From positions 2,546,825-2,610,824 of the forward strand of contig CAVUPM010000002.1 of NCBI GenBank assembly GCA_963743355.1: 64,000 nt of DNA. The letters are read 5' to 3'. The position numbers and the translations under genes were made by a program. The DNA is from an uncultured Candidatus Rokubacteria bacterium (GTDB lineage: Bacteria; Methylomirabilota; Methylomirabilia; Rokubacteriales; CSP1-6). The notes below the pieces were generated by a model. That model was not told the origin of the DNA. It searched no databases and was given only the letters and a program-made list of their open reading frames with translations. Position 1 is the stretch's first letter. The number at the start of each line of letters is the position of its first letter. Positions 1-56,026 of this stretch are shown here, one piece after another.

Positions 1-245
1 AAGACACCGACGACGCCCGTGAGCTGCTGGCCTTCGTGCTCGAGCAGTGCGCGCCGGTGGTGACCGCGGCCGCGAACGCGACCGACGGACTCGCGGCGTT
101 CCTCCGCGACCGCCCTCGGATCGTCGTCACCGATCTCGCCATGCCCGGGCACGACGGCTACTGGCTGCTGCGCCAGGTGCGGGCGCGCGCGGCCGCCGCC
201 GACGTGCGCGCCACGGCTCCGCCGGGGCGTCCCGAGCCACCCTAG
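1..245 (+). CDS. Response regulator receiver domain protein, 5' end outside the window; ORF terminates abnormally after helix alpha3 inside a copy of the dispersed repeat element
   Basis: Translation DTDDARELLAFVLEQ...IVVTDLAMPGHDGYWLLRQVRA matches the CheY-like receiver fold (D-x-x-MPG-DG); the C-terminal ...ADVRATAPPGRPEPP* and the stop at 243-245 are encoded by the repeat element (209-278). Confidence 0.55.
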   Translation, partial: DTDDARELLAFVLEQCAPVVTAAANATDGLAAFLRDRPRIVVTDLAMPGHDGYWLLRQVRARAAAADVRATAPPGRPEPP

Positions 246-278
246 GGGCTTGGGGAGCCCGTTCGAGGCCCCCCATCC
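209..278. repeat. Copy D of the dispersed GC-rich double-hairpin repeat element
   Basis: cgccacggctccgccggggcgtcccgagccaccctaggggcttggggagcccgttcgaggcccccc aligns nearly base-for-base with the copies at 12615-12712 and 44141-44225. Confidence 0.6.
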
Positions 279-281
279 TAA

Positions 282-1082
282 CTAATCCAGCAGCCGCCGC
301 CGAAGGCCGTCGACGGCACTGCGAAAGTCGTCGCCCGCCGAATCGACACCTCGCTGGATCTCGCGCCAGTCTTCGCGGAGCTTGTTCGGCAGATCGAAGC
401 CCCGCCGGGGCGCCGGGCGTGACGCGGCCGGGGCGGGCGCAGCGTCGGTCGGTGCCGCGCGTGGAGTCACCGCCGCCACCGGCGGCGAGGGCGCGATGAT
501 GGGCGCGGGCGGCGGGGCTGGGGGATCCATGGTCCGTGACGTCGACGGTGACGCGGCCGGGGCGGGCGGCTCGGACCTGGCCATCTCTTCGATCGGCCTC
601 GCGAGAGTCGGCGGCACGGGTCTGACGGCAGGCGAAGCGCCCGGCCGGGTCCCCGCCGGCGGCGGGGTCGGCGCAGGCCGCTCGACCACCGGCCGCGGTG
701 GGGCGGCCTCGCGCCGGCGCAGCGCGTCCTGCAGCTCTCGAATCCGAGCCTCGGTCTCCATCAGCCGCGACTCCTGCCCTGCGACCTTCTCGCCAAGCGC
801 CGGGACCTGGGCGTCGGACGCCGGCACCGCAACGGCCGCTGGCGACGGTGTGGGCGAGGGCTGAACGAGCACGATGGCAATCAGGATGGCCGTCGCGGCG
901 AAGCACGCGGCGGCCACCGTGTGGCCGAGGCGGGTCAGGATGAGACGGCGGTTGGCTCGGTCAGGCGCGTCCTCGTCGCCCGGAGTGAAGCCGTAAAGCA
1001 CCACGAGGATGCAGATGACGACGGCACCGAGGGCGCTGAGGGCCACTGCGGTGGCGAGCGCGGCCGGGGCGAACGCAGGCAT
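282..1082 (-). CDS. Hypothetical membrane-anchored protein with two TM helices, a coiled-coil segment and a long Pro/Ala-rich tail
   Basis: Reading from the internal Met (MPAFAPAALATAVALSALGAVVICILVVLYGF...): hydrophobic helices, then EARIRELQDALRRRE, then P/A/S/T-rich low-complexity region; no recognisable family. Confidence 0.4.
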   Translation of the reverse strand: MPAFAPAALATAVALSALGAVVICILVVLYGFTPGDEDAPDRANRRLILTRLGHTVAAACFAATAILIAIVLVQPSPTPSPAAVAVPASDAQVPALGEKVAGQESRLMETEARIRELQDALRRREAAPPRPVVERPAPTPPPAGTRPGASPAVRPVPPTLARPIEEMARSEPPAPAASPSTSRTMDPPAPPPAPIIAPSPPVAAVTPRAAPTDAAPAPAASRPAPRRGFDLPNKLREDWREIQRGVDSAGDDFRSAVDGLRRRLLD

Positions 1083-10050: not shown

Positions 10051-10359
10051 TTTCTGCGATTGATGAATCTCGTGCTACGTGGTGACGCCGGGCCCCGGAC
10101 CCGAGGGCCGCGGGCGCGCCATCACGGCGGCCGTCGTCGCCGTTCGAGCGCAGGGGGCGGCGAGCGAGCCGCCGAGGATTCGGCTGGTCCGCGCCCGAGC
10201 CCCCGCGGGGGGATGGGGGCCCCGAGCGAGCCGGGCAGGCGCGCCCGCGGCCCTCGGGCCTGGCGCCCGGCGTCACCAGACTCCACGAGGATCGTTCGCC
10301 CCGCGGCGTCGGACTTCCGCATTCACGTGTGGCTGAGCGGGACTGCTACAATCCGGGGC

Positions 10360-11472
10360 ATGCGGCGCGTCGGCGTGATTTTCGGGGGGCGCTCCGGCGA
10401 GCACGAGGTGTCCCTGGCCTCCGCCGCCTCGGTGATCGCCGCGCTTGAGCGCCGCGGGCACCACGTGGTCCCCATCGGCATCGCGCGCGATGGGGGCTGG
10501 GTGGTGGGCGGCGATCCGATGCGCGCGCTCGCCGAGCAGGCCCGGGTCGCACTCCCCAACGGTGACGAGACCGGCGCCGTCAAGAAGGCCCTGGCCGATC
10601 GCGCCGAGGGCGTCCTGAGCGACACTGCCGTCTCCCTCGTGCGCTCGGAGCCGGCCGGTAGCGTGCCCAGCGAGCTGCGCCAGGGTCTCGACGTCGTCTT
10701 CATCGCGCTGCACGGGCCGTACGGCGAGGACGGCACCATCCAGGGCCTGCTGGAGGTCGCCGACATCCCCTACGTCGGCGCCGGGGTGCTGGCCTCCGCC
10801 GTCGGCATGGACAAGGCAACCATGAAGACGGTGTTCCGGGCGCACGGGCTGCCGATCGTCGAGCACGTGGTCGTCATGCGTCGCGACTGGCGCGAGCGGC
10901 CCGCCGCCGTCGCCCGCGAGATCGCCGAGACCATCGGCTTCCCCTGCTTCGTCAAGCCCTCCAACCTCGGCTCCAGCGTCGGCATCAGCAAGGTGAAGTA
11001 CGCCGGCGACCTCGCCGCCGCCATCGACGAGGCCGCCCGCCACGACCGCAAGCTGGTCGTCGAGCGGGCGGTCCGCGCGCGCGAGATCGAGGTCAGCGTT
11101 CTCGGCAACGACGCGCCGGACGCCTCGCTGCCGGGCGAGATCGTCTACGAGGGTGAGTGGTACGACTACGCCACCAAGTACGGCGAGGGCCAGGCCCGCC
11201 TCGTCTGCCCGGCGCCGGTGACCCCGGAGCTCACGGCCCAGTTCCGCGAGCTCGCGGTGGCGACGTTCCGCGCGATCGACTGCGCCGGGATGGCCCGCGT
11301 CGACTTCTTTCTCGAGGGCAATCGCATCCTCGTGAACGAGATCAACACGATCCCCGGCTTCACGTCGACCAGCGGCTACGCGCGGATGTGGGAAGCAACC
11401 GGGCTGTCGTATCCCGACCTCGTCCAGCGCCTCGTCGACCTCGCCCTGGAGCGGCACCGCGAAAAGTCGTAG
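10360..11472 (+). CDS. ddl: D-alanine--D-alanine ligase
   Basis: [19 protein letters not shown]..., ATP-grasp motifs [16 protein letters not shown] and [10 protein letters not shown]. Confidence 0.9.
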
Positions 11473-12585: not shown

Positions 12586-13377
12586 CTACCGGCGTTTCGT
12601 GGTGTGGCGGCTCGACGGATATCGAGGAGCGCCCCGGCTCCGCCGGGGCGCTCCGAGCGTCGGGGGGGTCTGGGGGGCCATCTCGGGGCCCCCCATCAGG
12701 TCGAAGCGGGCCGGGCAGGAATCGCAGCGCGGGATCGTGCGGCAGTGTGCCTTGGCAACCGCGACCAGCAAGGCGTGGAACTCGTTGAAGAGCGCGGGGT
12801 CCGAGGGCAGGTGCGCCTCGAGGAACGCGCGCGTCTCCTCGTAGCCGGCGTGGAGCCGCAGCAGGCGGTGACGCACGAGCACGCGGCGCGTGTAGGCGTC
12901 GGCGACGAAGACCGGACGGCCGGCGGCGTAGAGCAGGATCGCGTCGGCCGTCTCCGGCCCCAGGCCGGGGACCCCGAGCAGCTCACGCCGCACGGGCCCC
13001 AGCGGCGCCCGGCGCATGGCGCGGAAGTCGCCGCCGAAGCGCTCGAGCAGCCAGCCGGTGAAGTCGAGCAGGCGGCGCGCCTTCAGGCGATAGGTGCCGG
13101 CCGGTCGCACCAGCGCGCCGAGGGCGACGACATCGCAGCCGGCCAGGCGTCTCGGGGTCAGCAGTCGATGGGCCCGGAGCGCGGCCACGGCCCGAGCGGC
13201 GCCCGGCCAGGCCGTGTGCTGGGTCAGGATCGCTCCGACGGCCACCTCGAAGGCCGTGCGGGCCGGCCACCAGCCCTGCGGGCCGTAGCGCGCCTGCAGC
13301 GCGCGGTAGAGCCGCAGCAGGCGCGCCTTGCTGGGATCGCGCGGCGGGCCGGGGATCCGGCGCCAGCCCGGCAGCAT
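12586..13377 (-). CDS. Endonuclease III-like HhH-GPD DNA glycosylase family protein with an atypical, repeat-derived C-terminus
   Basis: HhH-GPD motif LLGVPGLGPETADAILLYAAGRPVFVADAYTRRV; Fe-S motif HCRTIPRCDSC keeps 3 Cys but the fourth is replaced by a tail (MGGPEMAPQTPPTLGAPRRSRG...) encoded by the repeat element. Confidence 0.6.
   Translation of the reverse strand: MLPGWRRIPGPPRDPSKARLLRLYRALQARYGPQGWWPARTAFEVAVGAILTQHTAWPGAARAVAALRAHRLLTPRRLAGCDVVALGALVRPAGTYRLKARRLLDFTGWLLERFGGDFRAMRRAPLGPVRRELLGVPGLGPETADAILLYAAGRPVFVADAYTRRVLVRHRLLRLHAGYEETRAFLEAHLPSDPALFNEFHALLVAVAKAHCRTIPRCDSCPARFDLMGGPEMAPQTPPTLGAPRRSRGAPRYPSSRHTTKRR
12615..12712. repeat. Copy A of the dispersed GC-rich double-hairpin repeat element, overlapping the 3' end of the endonuclease III-like gene
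   Basis: Hairpin 1 GGAGCGCCCCGG-ctccg-CCGGGGCGCTCC (12-bp stem) and hairpin 2 GGGGGGCC-atctcgg-GGCCCCCC; about 90% identical to the copy at 44141-44225. Confidence 0.65.
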
Positions 13378-18959: not shown

Positions 18960-19065
18960 TCGACGGGCCGCCGAACAGCGGCCATCCGCGGCGTTGGCTC
19001 CTCGCTCTTCCCTGAGGCGCCTGCGGCATACGCCTCAGAGCTCGTGCACGAATCGCGTGGTCGAG

Positions 19066-19093
19066 GCGCGCCCCGGGTGTCCCGGGGCGCGCC
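19066..19093 (+). terminator. Candidate intrinsic terminator hairpin after the polyamine/methyltransferase operon
   Basis: Perfect palindrome GGCGCGCCCCGGG-tgt-CCCGGGGCGCGCC (13-bp stem), preceded by a second hairpin CTGAGGCG-11nt-CGCCTCAG at 19012-19038; no U-tract, as is common in high-GC genomes. Confidence 0.4.
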
Positions 19094-19141
19094 GAGCGCA
19101 TGGGGGGCGTGGGGCCCTGACCGCGAGGTAGGCTTCAGACC

Positions 19142-20320
19142 ATGCCCAGACTGACGGCGGTTGTGAGGCTCAAGCGCGGACGTGAGCAGAAGGCTCGGGT
19201 GCATCCGTGGATCTTCAAGGGCGATGTCGCCGATGCCAGCGATGTTGCGCCCGGCAGCATCGTGACGGTGGTGGATGCCGGGGGACGGTTCGTGGGGCGG
19301 GGGTTCTTCAATCCGCGGCCGGCGCTGTGCTGTCGGATCGTGACGTGGGAAGACGAGGCGGTCGACGCCCGGCTCCTGTCGCGCCGGCTCGTGGCGGCGG
19401 TCGACGCGCGGGGGCGCGGGGGAGCGGTGCCCGACGTCGGGCGGCTGGTGTGGAGCGAGGCGGACGGGTTGCCGGGGCTGGTGGTCGATCGGTACGGGCC
19501 GGGGCTGGTGGTGCAGTGTCTGACGCTGGGCATGGCGCGGGTACGGGATGACATCGTTGCCGGGCTCCGCGCCCGGGTCGGCGATCTCGCCGTGTTCAGC
19601 ATGGACGACGCCGTGGTGGCTCAACTGGAGGGCTTCGAACCGGCGGCCGGCTGGGTGGATCGGCCCGGGCCCGAGGAGATCGTGATCGACGAGGGCGGTG
19701 TGCGCTTCGCGGTGCGGCCCGGCGTCGGCCACAAGACCGGCGTCTACCTCGACCAGGCCGGTAACCGGGTAGCCGTCGGGGCCGCGGCCGGTCCCGGCGT
19801 CGCCCTGGACGTCTTCGCCTACACCGGCGGCTTCGCCTGCCACGCGCTCCAACGGGGCGCGCGGCGGGTGGTGTGCATCGAGTCCTCCCCCGAGGCCATC
19901 GCGGGCGCCCGCCGCAACCTCGAGCTGAACGGCTTCACCGAGCGCGCGGAAATCCGCGCCGTCAACGCCTTCGACGAGCTCCGCCGCCTGGACCGCGACC
20001 GCACCCGCTTCGACCTCATCGTCCTCGACCCCCCACCCTTCGCCCGCAGCCGATCAGCCCTGGACGCCGCCCTCCGCGGCTACAAGGAGATCAACCTGCG
20101 CGCGCTGCGCCTGCTGGCTCCCGGCGGCCGCCTGGCCACGTTCTCGTGCTCCCACCACGTGGACGAGACCACCTTCGAAGCCACCATCCGCGACGCCGCC
20201 ACCGACGCCGCCGTCCGTCTCCGCCTCCTCACCCGCCTGGACCAAGCCCCCGACCACCCGATCCTCCTGACCATCCCCGAGACCCGCTATCTGAAAGGAT
20301 TTCTCCTCCAAGCGCTGTGA
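19142..20320 (+). CDS. rlmI: 23S rRNA (cytosine1962-C5)-methyltransferase RlmI (PUA plus class I methyltransferase)
   Basis: N-terminal PUA-like region (RVHPWIFKGDV), SAM motif LDVFAYTGGFACHA, DPPPFARS motif IV. Confidence 0.8.
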   Translation: MPRLTAVVRLKRGREQKARVHPWIFKGDVADASDVAPGSIVTVVDAGGRFVGRGFFNPRPALCCRIVTWEDEAVDARLLSRRLVAAVDARGRGGAVPDVGRLVWSEADGLPGLVVDRYGPGLVVQCLTLGMARVRDDIVAGLRARVGDLAVFSMDDAVVAQLEGFEPAAGWVDRPGPEEIVIDEGGVRFAVRPGVGHKTGVYLDQAGNRVAVGAAAGPGVALDVFAYTGGFACHALQRGARRVVCIESSPEAIAGARRNLELNGFTERAEIRAVNAFDELRRLDRDRTRFDLIVLDPPPFARSRSALDAALRGYKEINLRALRLLAPGGRLATFSCSHHVDETTFEATIRDAATDAAVRLRLLTRLDQAPDHPILLTIPETRYLKGFLLQAL

Positions 20321-20488
20321 CCGCGCGGGGCCCGGCGCTGGCGCCGGGTGGCGGGCGAGGCACTCCCGCCGGACGAGCCGTGGCACCACCCGCAACGCAA
20401 GGCTGGCCGGGCGAGCCGGCGGGCGGGTGCCGAGCCGGACAGGGCCCGGCGCCAGCGCCGGGCCCCGCGCGGTCACAGCGCTTGGAGG
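20305..20488. repeat. Perfect 44-bp inverted repeat flanking a 96-bp spacer between convergent genes; MITE-like element or very long bidirectional terminator
   Basis: Left arm CCTCCAAGCGCTGTGACCGCGCGGGGCCCGGCGCTGGCGCCGGG (20305-20348) is the exact reverse complement of the right arm (20445-20488); the last 5 codons and stop of rlmI lie inside the left arm and the stop of the minus-strand gene abuts the right arm. Confidence 0.6.
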
Positions 20489-20489
20489 A

Positions 20490-21540
20490 CTACCAGGCGC
20501 GCGTCTCGCCGTGCGTGAGGATCCAGACGCGATCGGGGTCGAGGCCGAGCCGGCGCGCCTCGACCTGAAGCCGCGCCGGCGGCTCGGTCAGCGGCTCGTC
20601 CGCGAGGTCGAACGTCCCCCAGTGCATGGCGACGAAGCGGCGCCCGCGCACGTCGCCGAAGATCCGCAACGACTCCTCGGGCGTCGTGTGCGTGTGGCGC
20701 ATGATGGCCGCCGGCATGTAGGCGCCGATCGAGATCGCCGCCAGGTCGAAGGGGCCGAGGCGGGCGCCGATCTCCTTGAAGTACGGCTCCCAGTATCCCG
20801 TGTCCCCCGTGAAGAGCAGGCGTCGGTCGCGGCCGACCACGGTCCAGCCGCTCCAGAGCCGGCCGTTCTGCTCGAAGAACGCGCGGGCCGTCCAGTGCTG
20901 CACGGGCACGCACGTCAGCGTGAGCCCGCGCTCCGTCCGGCTGTCCCACCAGTCGAGCTCGACGACGTCGGTGATGCCGCGGCCGGCGAACCACGCCTTG
21001 AGCCCGAGCGGCACGTAGAACCGCGGCCGGTGAGCGGCGGCCAGCCGGGTGACCGTCGCCTCGTCGAGGTGATCGAAGTGGTCGTGCGAGATCAGCACGA
21101 CGTGGATCGGCGGCAGGTCCTCGAAGCGCAGCCCGGGCGGCGTCACCCGCCGGGGGCCGGCGAAGCTCAGCGGACTGGCGCGCTCCGACCACTGCGGGTC
21201 GGTGAGCACGTTCACGCCGTCGAGCTGGATCAGCAGCGTGGCGTGTCCGACCCACGTGATGGTGGCCTCGGTCTGGTTGGCCCGCAGGGCGGCCCCGTCG
21301 TTGGGCACGCGGGGCAGCGTCACCGTGCGCGGCGAGAAGGTGCTGGCCCACACCCGCTTCGCGAAGAACCTGGTGCGGGTCCAGAACGCCGGCCGGGCGA
21401 AGTCGGGATTGGCGTTGGCGAAGCCGCGCTCACGGTGGTGGGCGGGCGCGCCGGGGATGGGTCCTCCGACCCCGGTACAGGCGGCGGCCAGGAGGAGACA
21501 CGGCACGAGCAGGGCGAGCCGGCGACACGGGCGGAGCGAC
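20490..21540 (-). CDS. MBL-fold metallo-hydrolase lipoprotein (NAPE-PLD/Lactamase_B_2-like); start codon unresolved
   Basis: Lipoprotein signal ...RLALLVPCLLLAAACTG; metal motif HVVLISHDHFDHLD, GDTGY, MHWGTFD; only CTG/GTG candidates for the start, overlapping the histidine kinase stop. Confidence 0.6.
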
Positions 21541-44141: not shown

Positions 44142-44225
44142 CGGGACATCGAGGGGCGCCACGGCTCCGCCGGGGTGCCCCGAGCGACTGGGGGGTCTAG
44201 GGGGGCCATGTCGGGGCCCCCCTAC
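44141..44225. repeat. Copy B of the dispersed GC-rich double-hairpin repeat element (intergenic, between convergent genes)
   Basis: gccacggctccgccggggtgccccgagcgactggggggtctaGGGGGGCCatgtcggGGCCCCCC. Confidence 0.65.
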
Positions 44226-44929
44226 ACTTCGAGGAAGCGCTGCTGGATCGTGGGGTCGCGGCGCAGCTCGGCCGGCGTTCCCTCGAACTGGATCCGTCCC
44301 TGGTCCATCACGTAGAGGCGGTGGGAGAGGCTCATCGCCACCTCCAGCGTCTGCTCCACCAGCAGCAGCGTCGTGCCGCGCTGGTTGATGCGGGCCAGGA
44401 TCGCGGTCAGGTTCTGCACGATCAGCGGCGCCAGCCCCTCGGTGGGCTCGTCGACCAGCATCACCGACGGCCGGGCCACCAGCCCCCGCGCGATGGCGAG
44501 CATCTGCTGCTCGCCCCCCGACAGGAAGACCCCGCGCTGATCCACGCGCTCGCGCAGCCGCGGGAAGTACTCGAAGACCTCGTCGAGAGCGCCAGGGGCC
44601 GCCCCGCCCGCGCGGCCGAGCATGCCGAGCCGCAGGTTCTCGAGCACGGTGAGGTTCGGCAGGATCCGGCGCTCCTCGGGGATCCACGCGATGCCGTGGC
44701 GGGCGATCTCGTGGGTCTCGAGGCGGCCGATGTCGACGCCGCGCAGGGTGACCCGGCCACGGCTCGGCCGCGCGATGCCCATGATCGAGCGCAGCGTGGT
44801 GGTCTTGCCGGCGCCGTTGCGCCCGATCAGCGTGACGACCTCGCCTTCGTCCAGGCGCAGCGACACGCCCTGGAGGATATGCGCCTCGCCGTAGTAGGTG
44901 TGGATGTCCTCGACGCTGAGGAACGCCAT
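44222..44929 (-). CDS. livF: Branched-chain amino-acid ABC transporter ATP-binding protein LivF
   Basis: Walker A GRNGAGKTT, signature LSGGEQQM, Walker B VMLVDEP. Confidence 0.85.
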   Translation of the reverse strand: MAFLSVEDIHTYYGEAHILQGVSLRLDEGEVVTLIGRNGAGKTTTLRSIMGIARPSRGRVTLRGVDIGRLETHEIARHGIAWIPEERRILPNLTVLENLRLGMLGRAGGAAPGALDEVFEYFPRLRERVDQRGVFLSGGEQQMLAIARGLVARPSVMLVDEPTEGLAPLIVQNLTAILARINQRGTTLLLVEQTLEVAMSLSHRLYVMDQGRIQFEGTPAELRRDPTIQQRFLEV

Positions 44930-45683: not shown

Positions 45684-45843
45684 ACGCGCAAATAGCACGC
45701 CCGCTTTCGACGTGTCAAGCCGAGCGGCGGTGTAGTATCGACTCGCGATGACGACGCCGCCCGCCGACGGCATGCCGACCACGCGCGGGCCGAACGTCTA
45801 TCTCGCCGAGCCCGCCGGAGGCTGCTGAGATCCCGCCGCCGCG

Positions 45844-48906: not shown

Positions 48907-49133
48907 CGTCCCCGGTCTGATATCGCGCACCGTGACAGCGGTGTCGCCGACGCGGGCGGAGGACGTACGAGATGGGGTCCGTGGACCCGTTCCCGCCACC
49001 CATCACCGTGTGCCCCCCAGCCGGATGGAGCCCAGCCACGGCCGGGCGAGGCGGCCTCCGGCCGCGTGGTGCCACGGACCCCACCTCGTACGTCCTCCGC
49101 CCGCGTCGGCGACACCGACCGGCGGCGCGGAGG

Positions 49134-55914: not shown

Positions 55915-55934
55915 CGCTCGGCCCGCAAGGCGGC

Positions 55935-55995
55935 GCCGCCGGGCCGGCACCCCCGAGCCACCCGGGGGGTCTGGGGGCCATGTCGGGGCCCCCCA
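55935..55995. repeat. Copy C (partial) of the dispersed GC-rich hairpin repeat element
   Basis: ggcacccccgagccacccggggggtctGGGGGCCatgtcggGGCCCCCC. Confidence 0.55.
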
Positions 55996-56026
55996 GGCAG
56001 GCTATCCCCCCGGTAAACTATCCCGC

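What the first reader, a model, noticed from the sequence alone, without database searches (positions are those of the whole stretch)
20305..20488. Perfect 44-bp inverted repeat flanking 96 bp between convergent rlmI and the MBL-hydrolase gene
The arm CCTCCAAGCGCTGTGACCGCGCGGGGCCCGGCGCTGGCGCCGGG (20305-20348) and its exact reverse complement (20445-20488) enclose a GC-rich spacer that has its own sub-hairpins. A 44/44 identity is unusual for a simple terminator and points to a recent MITE-like insertion or a very stable bidirectional terminator. The last five codons and stop of rlmI (LLQAL*) lie inside the left arm, and the stop codon of the opposite gene abuts the right arm.
Basis: seen in the sequence. 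Interest (0 to 1): 0.55.

Follow-up and report, generated by a model that had tools for sequence, protein, structure and literature searches.

The report
Inserted hairpin element between convergent genes
The perfect inverted repeat is real: it is the stem of a 186-base GC-rich hairpin inserted into what was a 14-base gap between two converging genes, and part of the stem is a backwards copy of the end of the neighbouring rRNA-methyltransferase gene; unrelated hairpin inserts of the same build occur elsewhere in this genome and its relatives.

Summary
The repeat is confirmed. It is 45 nt per arm (20304-20348 / 20445-20489), 100% complementary, with a 96-nt spacer. In 44 of about 70 related loci the rlmI and MBL stop codons lie only 0-27 nt apart, so the window's 169-nt spacer is a gain.

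The same element ("F1") sits at the same position in the sister lineage. It also occurs twice, at a different position of the same spacer, in a more distant relative. Window versus sister lineage, the F1 core is 95% identical against 62% at neutral sites. Differences in the stem are compensated on both sides.

The rlmI codons in the left arm are native sequence. The outer 24-27 nt of the right arm are a new reverse-complement copy of them, which fits replication template switching.

Two more long hairpins in the window (10069-10289, 48939-49117) are also lineage-specific inserts. Two such hairpin families, one of them including the 10069-10289 element, each occur at two different loci in different genomes, so these are dispersed elements.

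There is no Rfam match, no U-tract, no target-site duplication and no conserved terminal repeat. Best reading: a REPIN/MITE-like non-autonomous hairpin element, with arms homogenised and extended by template switching, probably acting as a 3'-end RNA hairpin. Copy number in the source genome and the mobilising enzyme remain untested.

The parts
19142..20320 (+). rlmI-like 23S rRNA methyltransferase gene (392 aa). Its last five codons and stop lie in the left arm.
   Evidence: ORF list, translation, Pfam PUA_3 + Methyltrans_SAM. The C-terminus ...GLLLQAL is conserved in relatives.
20490..21506 (-). MBL-fold hydrolase gene. Its stop codon (CTA on the + strand, 20490-20492) abuts the right arm. 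The start is uncertain; GTG at 21506 would give 338 aa.
   Evidence: Pfam Lactamase_B_2. Alignment to the L007 and L109 orthologues places the start.
20304..20348 (.). Left arm of the perfect 45-nt inverted repeat.
20445..20489 (.). Right arm of the perfect 45-nt inverted repeat.
20304..20330 (+). Native part of the left arm: the rlmI 3' end plus the ancestral spacer CCGCGCGGGG. This is not part of the insert.
   Evidence: It is orthologous to the empty sites in L007 (ctcctccaggcgcggTGAccgcgcgggg), L109 and L016.
20331..20486 (+). DNA absent from empty-site relatives (156 nt): the F1 hairpin element plus the inverted copy of the flank.
   Evidence: Comparison of the window with L007 and L109.
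20331..20462 (+). F1 element proper (132 nt): inner arms 20331-20348 and 20445-20462 and the conserved core 20349-20444. It lacks a 57-nt apical segment present in the L001 and L010 copies.
   Evidence: Alignment A2 of four independent copies. CM R1 scores it 110 bits. Core identity to L001 is 90/95.
20463..20489 (+). Reverse-complement copy of 20304-20330 (rlmI end plus spacer). 20463-20486 is new sequence. 20487-20489 (GGA) matches the GGA that precedes CTA in L007 and may be the return microhomology.
   Evidence: The template-switch reading is inference.
10069..10289 (.). Element B: a second long hairpin insert (60-nt arms, 82% complementary, 101-nt spacer) between an unknown gene and the ddl promoter. 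Its sequence is unrelated to F1.
   Evidence: The orthologous spacer is 53 nt in L104 and L105. Its core is homologous to a hairpin at a different locus in L100/L101 (z = 7.9).
48939..49117 (.). Element C: a third long hairpin insert (46-nt arms, 98% complementary, 87-nt spacer) between a convergent DUF4139 gene and a response-regulator gene.
   Evidence: The orthologous spacer is 40 nt in L094-L099, and a different hairpin sits there in L100.

Best explanation
The repeat is the stem of a non-autonomous, REPIN/MITE-like hairpin element (called F1 here). F1 was inserted into the roughly 14-nt spacer between the convergent rlmI and MBL genes, in the common ancestor of this genome and its sister lineages.

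Shown:
- It is a gain relative to empty sites.
- The same family was inserted at a different position of the same spacer in another lineage.
- Other hairpin families of the same build occur at different loci in related genomes.
- Between window and L001 the F1 core is far more conserved than neutral sites.
- Pairing is kept through two-sided changes across the four copies.
- The outer 24-27 nt of the right arm are a reverse-complement copy of the native rlmI 3' end.

Inferred:
- The arms are kept perfect, and were lengthened into the gene end, by replication template switching. In this model the nascent strand folds back on the hairpin, copies the left flank, and returns at a GGA microhomology.
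- The element spreads as a single-stranded DNA hairpin, either through an unidentified HUH/RAYT-type enzyme or by template switching itself.
- When transcribed, it forms a very stable 3' stem-loop that blocks read-through and exonucleases for both convergent mRNAs. This is the likely reason the core is under selection.
For: Insertion:
- L007 and L109 have TGAccgcgcgggg + 4-5 nt + CTA between the genes.
- 44 of about 70 orthologous loci have 0-27 nt between the stops.
- The RlmI tree places these empty sites immediately outside the window + L001 clade.

Same element elsewhere:
- It is present in seven independently assembled contigs, L001-L006 and L008.
- The RlmI 88%-identity lineage has a 213-nt spacer.
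- L010 has two copies (96-105 bits).

Independent insertion: L010 keeps the ancestral spacer CCGGCGCGCGCG to the right of its inserts, while the window and L001 keep theirs to the left.

Dispersed nature of the class:
- Window element B matches a hairpin between two ABC transporter genes in L100/L101, a junction that is empty in the window (z = 7.9).
- The L034 hairpin upstream of rlmI matches the L100 hairpin at the DUF4139/response-regulator junction (z = 19.5).
- Elements A, B and C are all lineage-specific inserts.

Constraint and pairing:
- F1 core identity is 90/95 against 134/215 at rlmI 4-fold sites.
- 93.7% of cells are paired, against 35-46% when the partners are slid.
- 27 pairs have two-sided changes against 1-5 in slid controls, and 0 of 500 shuffles reach this.
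- Several of these are G-C to C-G swaps, which have no wobble intermediate.

Flank copy: 20463-20489 is the reverse complement of 20304-20330, and the latter is orthologous to the empty-site sequence.

Template switching is a documented way to create, perfect and homogenise hairpin arms and to invert spacers (PMC8794818; PMC8604942 abstract). Flipped cores are seen in L046 vs L073, L070 vs L078, and the two L010 copies.
Against: - No second F1 copy was found in the 64-kb window, nor outside the rlmI/MBL junction in 515 kb of related loci.
- Multi-copy status of F1 in any one genome rests only on the two adjacent L010 copies.
- The source genome could not be scanned.
- No transposase, target-site duplication or conserved terminal repeat was found.
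- Vertical inheritance with repeated precise losses would explain part of the distribution as parsimoniously as repeated gains.
- The GGA microhomology rests on one relative, L007; L109 has CCG there.
- No transcript data exist. There is no U-tract, and most relatives lack any hairpin at this junction, so a terminator role is not essential.
Confidence: 0.55

Rival explanations
1. A locally evolved, non-mobile structure. On this reading it is a dedicated bidirectional terminator or 3'-UTR RNA hairpin, built and maintained at this junction by successive template-switch events and inherited vertically, with losses in some lineages.
For: F1 is seen only at this junction. The genes are convergent. 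Part of the stem is demonstrably made from local sequence. The core is under purifying selection and the stem covaries. There is no target-site duplication, terminal inverted repeat or transposase. Counts of gains and losses on the tree are similar.
Against: The core has no detectable source in the neighbouring 64 kb. The L010 copies sit on the other side of the ancestral spacer. Two other hairpin families of the same build are each found at two unrelated loci. At least five unrelated inserts occupy this same junction in different lineages. 44 of about 70 relatives have no hairpin at all. There is no U-tract.
Confidence: 0.25
2. A structured non-coding RNA gene or cis-regulatory RNA whose conserved core is the functional part, with the long stem as a scaffold. 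It could, for example, be a 3'-UTR-derived sRNA or an RNase III target that couples the two convergent genes.
For: Window versus L001, the core is 95% identical while neutral sites are 62%. Compensatory changes occur even within the core helix, and one U-G pair is invariant on the element's + strand. There are about 20 G-U cells against about 6 A-C cells. A 1-nt indel in the core excludes a coding function.
Against: No Rfam family matches, even at E up to 10. No promoter-like site was found. The element is absent from most relatives. Cores are found in either orientation relative to the genes. The G-U asymmetry is weak and rests on four copies.
Confidence: 0.15
3. A classical, recently inserted MITE (a cut-and-paste derivative of an insertion sequence).
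For: It is a short insertion with long terminal inverted repeats, and sites are polymorphic between filled and empty.
Against: There is no direct target-site duplication. The outer arms are not shared between copies, and here they are partly native gene sequence. The insertion predates the split from a lineage with 38% divergence at 4-fold sites. The core, not the termini, is the conserved part.
Confidence: 0.05
4. An assembly artefact: a fold-back path through a shorter inverted repeat.
For: Metagenome assemblers can mis-join at inverted repeats. L070 shows a suspicious 107-nt arm that replaces the MBL 3' end.
Against: Both flanking genes are intact to their conserved stop codons. The orthologous element, with a diverged flank copy, is present in seven independent assemblies. 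The window comes from a 3.28-Mb contig.
Confidence: 0.02

Closest known systems
[quoted passage not shown]
   Same: Both are GC-rich extragenic hairpins made of two inverted halves plus a spacer. Both have no target-site duplication and lie downstream of genes, between unidirectional and convergent ORFs. Both are probably transcribed as RNA hairpins and are non-autonomous.
   Different: F1 is longer (132-190 nt against about 70-110 nt). No high-copy REP unit was seen: there are no further copies in 64 kb. No terminal GTAG/CGTC tag and no RAYT gene were found. The orthologous copy is conserved well above neutral sites. The stem has been extended into a neighbouring gene.
Bacterial MITEs with long terminal repeats, such as Neisseria Correia elements and enterobacterial ERIC (reviewed in PMC3184786)
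   Same: Both are 100-200-nt intergenic inserts that fold into long hairpins. Both show filled and empty sites among relatives, and both have possible effects on transcript ends.
   Different: MITEs share conserved terminal inverted repeats and make direct target-site duplications. Here the termini vary between copies, the core is the conserved part, and the flank is duplicated in inverted rather than direct orientation.
Template-switch mutations that create and repair hairpin stems (PMC8794818; PMC8604942)
   Same: A reverse-complement copy of adjacent sequence appears in one step. Imperfect arms become perfect. Multi-base compensatory changes occur. Spacers become inverted.
   Different: This is a mutational mechanism, not an element family. 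It explains the perfect arms and the captured rlmI end. It does not explain the origin or conservation of the F1 core.
U-tract-less ('I-shaped') intrinsic terminators described for high-GC bacteria (from my own knowledge, not checked here)
   Same: Both are GC-rich hairpins downstream of genes without a T-run, and both could act bidirectionally between convergent genes.
   Different: Those stems are roughly 10-20 bp. This one is 45 perfect bp plus about 35 more imperfect pairs, is an insertion, and is absent in most relatives.

Membership tests
MITE | Terminal inverted repeats conserved among copies of the family | tested here: not met
   In four independent F1 copies only the inner ~20 nt of the arms are homologous, and these have diverged with compensated changes. 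The outer arms are copy-specific.
MITE | Direct target-site duplication flanking the insert | tested here: not met
   The flanks are ...CCGCGCGGGG | insert | GGA-CTA, with no direct repeat. Instead, 24-27 nt of the left flank are repeated in inverted orientation.
MITE | Multiple dispersed copies in one genome | tested here: inconclusive
   No further copy was found in the 64-kb window. L010 has two copies in the same spacer. The source genome is absent from the scanned collections.
MITE | A parent insertion sequence with matching ends | not tested
   No whole-genome sequence was available, and the window's ORFs were not screened for transposases.
REPIN / REP | Two inverted repeat units separated by a spacer, folding into one hairpin | tested here: met
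   The two conserved halves of F1 pair with each other (helix 4, 25 pairs, 98% of cells paired) and are enclosed by the arms.
REPIN / REP | The unit is a high-copy extragenic repeat (tens to hundreds of copies per genome) | tested here: inconclusive
   No other copy was found in the window or in 515 kb of related loci. A whole genome could not be tested. A different repeat (R) does occur five times in the window.
REPIN / REP | An unpaired GTAG or CGTC tag at one end of the palindrome (PMC3733652) | tested here: not met
   Read directly from the sequence: 20304-20489 has no GTAG or CTAC. The single CGTC (minus strand, inside the core motif CGGACGAGCC) is internal, not terminal.
REPIN / REP | An associated RAYT (HUH tyrosine transposase) gene | not tested
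   This needs the full genome.
Canonical intrinsic terminator | A short GC-rich stem-loop immediately followed by a U-tract | tested here: not met
   The scan of 19900-20900 found no terminator-like site. The sequence after the stem is CTACCAGGCG on the + strand and GAAATCCTTTC on the - strand.
Template-switch-derived inverted repeat | The new sequence is the exact reverse complement of adjacent pre-existing sequence, and the ancestral state lacks it | tested here: met
   20463-20489 is the reverse complement of 20304-20330. The left copy is orthologous to the empty sites in L007, L109 and L016, which lack the right copy.
Template-switch-derived inverted repeat | Microhomology at the return switch point | tested here: inconclusive
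   GGA precedes CTA in both L007 and the window, but L109 has CCG at that position.
Rfam RNA families | A match to a curated covariance model | tested here: not met
   No hit at gathering score in the window or in 17 loci. Only chance-level hits appear at E up to 10.

The most novel reading that the evidence does not exclude
Rokubacteria/Methylomirabilota-type genomes may carry an undescribed superfamily of long (130-270 nt) GC-rich hairpin elements. Their cores would be conserved under selection, while their stems are continually rewritten and lengthened by template switching, sometimes swallowing the ends of neighbouring genes. They repeatedly land in the few-nucleotide spacers at gene ends: at least five unrelated inserts occupy the same rlmI/MBL junction. 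They would spread without terminal repeats or target duplications, possibly by replication template switching itself rather than through a transposase.
Probability: 0.3. Interest if true: 0.65.

Novelty: new variant of a known kind. Interest (0 to 1): 0.45.

Why it matters
If the reading holds, this locus is an unusually clean natural example of template switching building a long perfect stem out of a gene's own 3' end. The ancestral empty site, an older diverged copy and a perfect copy are all available for comparison.

It also points to a set of hairpin element families in an uncultivated, high-GC phylum. These families do not fit the MITE rules (conserved ends, direct duplications). They insert into very tight gene junctions, and their cores are conserved far above the neutral rate. 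That makes them candidates for functional 3'-end RNA elements and for a transposase-independent mode of spread.

Practically, such elements can mislead gene-end annotation and metagenome assembly. L070 may be an example.

Tried and rejected
- Rfam: gathering thresholds on the whole window and 17 loci, and E up to 10 on 20250-20550, gave nothing meaningful.
- Exact look-up of the window's RlmI and of P0001 to fetch the source contig: not on record. Cluster look-up gave no name or accession.
- Genome-contig scan with a degenerate F1 core pattern gave four hits. All are chance matches inside coding regions of Actinobacteria or an alphaproteobacterium. That collection evidently lacks the source genome and its relatives, so copy number stays untested.
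- Three viral-contig scans for the F1, F2 and F3 cores gave no relevant hits.
- Plasmid BLAST of element A and of repeat R found nothing.
- Pairwise Smith-Waterman with dinucleotide shuffles between all hairpin families found A, B, C and F2-F4 not detectably related. The exceptions are the B/L100 and L034/L100 pairs, plus a weak F2/F3 similarity in the G-rich arms.
- A covariance model of F1 found no extra copy. The F2 hairpins score 32-43 bits but on inconsistent strands, so I treat that as structure-driven rather than homology.
- The idea that the F1 core was built from nearby sequence found only weak 16-24-nt similarities to the MBL 3' region (I2 and D3), and no significant BLAST hit. I rejected it.
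- The idea that the insert supplies the rlmI C-terminus was rejected, because the C-terminus and flank are conserved in empty-site relatives.
- A coding function for the core was rejected, because of a 1-nt indel between copies.

Full report
**Observation.** The inverted repeat exists and is slightly longer than reported. The arms are 20304-20348 and 20445-20489: 45 nt, 100% complementary, 96 nt apart. Neither half of the arm recurs in the 64-kb window at up to 3 mismatches, and shuffled sequence gave none. The region folds into one long hairpin: -173 kcal/mol on the + strand (z = -12.7 against dinucleotide shuffles) and -167.8 kcal/mol on the - strand. The left arm covers the last five codons and the TGA of a PUA + SAM methyltransferase gene, rlmI-like, at 19142-20320. 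The right arm abuts the stop codon (CTA, 20490-20492) of a convergent Lactamase_B_2 gene.

**Organism and synteny.** RlmI homologues at 65-88% identity come from soil metagenomes and from MAGs labelled Methylomirabilota, with Candidatus Rokuibacteriota labels on neighbouring-gene homologues. An identical RlmI sits on a 3.28-Mb contig that the tools could not fetch. The arrangement rlmI-> <-MBL is nearly universal in 87 fetched loci.

**It is an insertion.** The stop-to-stop distance is 0-27 nt in 44 of about 70 scorable loci across the whole tree. The closest empty sites read TGAccgcgcggggcggaCTA (L007) and TGAccgcgcggggggccgCTA (L109). The window has the same TGACCGCGCGGGG, then 156 extra bases (20331-20486), then GGA-CTA. 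The RlmI C-terminus ...GLLLQAL is common in relatives. The rlmI codons and the 10-nt spacer in the left arm are therefore native. The matching 24-27 nt at the outer end of the right arm (20463-20489) are a new reverse-complement copy.

**The element (F1) and its history.**
- The sister lineage (L001-L006 and L008, seven independent assemblies, RlmI 86% identical) has a homologous 225-nt insert at the same position. Its inner arms are 33 nt at 97%, and its outer flank copy is more decayed.
- The 88%-identity lineage has a 213-nt spacer.
- A more basal relative, L010, has two F1 copies with cores in opposite orientation and different outer arms.
- L010 keeps the ancestral spacer CCGGCGCGCGCG, identical to the empty site of L011, on the right of its inserts. 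The window and L001 keep theirs on the left. F1 therefore entered this 12-14-nt spacer at least twice, at different positions.
- Homology among the four copies spans the core and about 20 nt of inner arm. The outermost arms are copy-specific, and the window copy lacks a 57-nt apical segment.

**Selection and pairing.** Between window and L001, rlmI 4-fold sites are 62% identical (134/215). The F1 core is 90/95 identical, and the inner arms are 16/19 on each side. On the four-copy alignment, 93.7% of cells pair, against 35-46% when partners are slid. Twenty-seven pairs show two-sided changes against 1-5 in slid controls, and no shuffle of 500 reaches this. Several changes are G-C to C-G swaps, which have no wobble intermediate. 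A 1-nt indel in the core rules out coding. G-U cells outnumber A-C cells (about 20 to 6) on the element's + strand, which is a weak hint of an RNA role.

**The wider pattern.**
- The window has two more long hairpins of the same geometry but unrelated sequence: B (10069-10289, upstream of the ddl promoter) and C (48939-49117, between a convergent DUF4139 gene and a response-regulator gene).
- Both are absent from the orthologous spacers of relatives: 53 nt in L104/L105 and 40 nt in L094-L099.
- Relative L100 carries a different hairpin at the C junction. It also has a 263-nt hairpin between two ABC transporter genes that are about 4 nt apart in the window.
- That ABC-junction hairpin is homologous to window element B (score 24.5 against 12.8 +/- 1.5, z = 7.9).
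- The hairpin at the C junction of L100 is homologous to a hairpin just upstream of rlmI in L034 (z = 19.5). So two hairpin families each occur at two unrelated loci.
- At the rlmI/MBL junction itself, different lineages carry at least five unrelated inserts: F1, F2, F3, F4 and an R repeat. There are further unclassified inserts, and F3 occurs in both orientations in lineages separated by many empty sites.
- F2 copies also keep their stem through two-sided changes.

**Mechanism.** The perfect arms and the captured gene end are what replication template switching produces. This process gives a reverse-complement copy of adjacent sequence in one event, homogenised arms, multi-base compensatory changes and inverted spacers (PMC8794818; PMC8604942 abstract). 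In the simplest version, the nascent strand folds back on the hairpin. Its 3' end is then extended along the left flank through the rlmI stop and four and two-thirds codons, and synthesis returns to the template at GGA. That trinucleotide precedes CTA in L007, but not in L109, so this step is tentative. L070 differs from its near-identical relative L078 by a flipped core and by 107-nt, 98% arms that replace the last 32 codons of MBL with an inverted copy of the left flank. It is either a second example or an assembly chimera. How the core elements move is not shown: no transposase, target duplication or conserved terminus was found.

**Function.** Function is inferred only. There is no U-tract or promoter-like site, no Rfam match, and most relatives have no hairpin at this junction. 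Still, the conservation of the core well above neutral sites argues that the element does something where it sits. The most plausible role is a transcribed 3' stem-loop that limits convergent read-through and protects both mRNA 3' ends.

**Limits.** The copy number of F1 in the source genome is unknown. The only genome-collection scan returned chance hits, because the relevant genomes are not in that collection. No F1 copy exists elsewhere in the window or in 515 kb of related loci. The alternative of vertical inheritance with repeated precise losses is not excluded for part of the distribution.

**Verdict.** The closest known kinds are REPINs/MITEs for the element and template-switch mutation for its perfect, gene-invading stem.

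Noticed in passing
window 205-282, 12619-12701, 19059-19115, 44146-44230, 55926-56001 (all + strand); also L018 961-1042, L102 2147-2227, L083 4562-4635: A dispersed ~75-nt repeat ('R') made of two adjacent GC-rich stem-loops. Its consensus is about ATCGAGGAGCGCCCCGGCTCCGCCGGGGCGCTCCGAGCGTCGGGGGGGTCTGGGGGGCCATCTCGGGGCCCCCC. There are five copies in 64 kb, all intergenic and in one orientation. One copy lies just upstream of rlmI. It is REP-like and has no Rfam or plasmid match.
   Followed up: partly
window 10069-10289: Element B is a 221-nt hairpin (60-nt arms, 82% complementary) inserted between an unknown 219-aa gene and the conserved ddl promoter TGCTACAAT. It is absent in L104/L105, and its core is homologous to a hairpin at another locus in L100/L101.
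   Followed up: yes
window 48939-49117: Element C is a 179-nt hairpin (46-nt arms, 98% complementary) between a convergent DUF4139 gene and a response-regulator gene. It is absent in L094-L099, and L100 has an unrelated hairpin at the same place.
   Followed up: yes
L070 1763-2035 (compare L078 4143-4700): In a strain nearly identical to L078, the F2 hairpin has 107-nt, 98% arms and a flipped core, and the last 32 codons of MBL are replaced by an inverted copy of the left flank. This is either a large template-switch or fold-back event, or a metagenome assembly chimera.
   Followed up: partly
L010 4180-4723: Two F1 copies with cores in opposite orientation fill a 544-nt spacer. Between them lies a fragment (CTACCAGCAGCGGGCGA) that resembles the MBL 3' end.
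   Followed up: partly
L049, L051, L056, L064 (rlmI/MBL spacer, 253-381 nt); L054: Here the spacer is expanded by tandem ~60-70-nt units that each contain a copy of the junction sequence GCTCGCACTACCA (the MBL stop plus its last codons). A long hairpin sits at the rlmI-proximal (left) end of the spacer in L051, L056 and L064.
   Followed up: no
L100 5524-5786 and L101 (same element); window 44930: A 263-nt hairpin (58-nt arms, 93% complementary) lies between two co-directional ABC-transporter ATPase genes that are about 4 nt apart in the window. These elements therefore also land inside probable operons.
   Followed up: yes
window about 45800-45815 vs L100 6604-8361: The AidB-type acyl-CoA dehydrogenase gene (585 aa) present in L100, L094-L098 and L101 appears cleanly deleted from the window. 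Only its first and last few dozen bases align.
   Followed up: no
window 10343-10362 and orthologues in L102, L104, L107: A conserved extended -10-like TGCTACAAT lies 7-10 nt upstream of the ddl start codon in all relatives, suggesting a leaderless or near-leaderless ddl mRNA.
   Followed up: no
L009 and L016/L021, downstream of rlmI: In some lineages the MBL gene is lost (L016, L021) or reduced to a ~60-nt 3' remnant (L009), while the short spacer after rlmI is kept.
   Followed up: no
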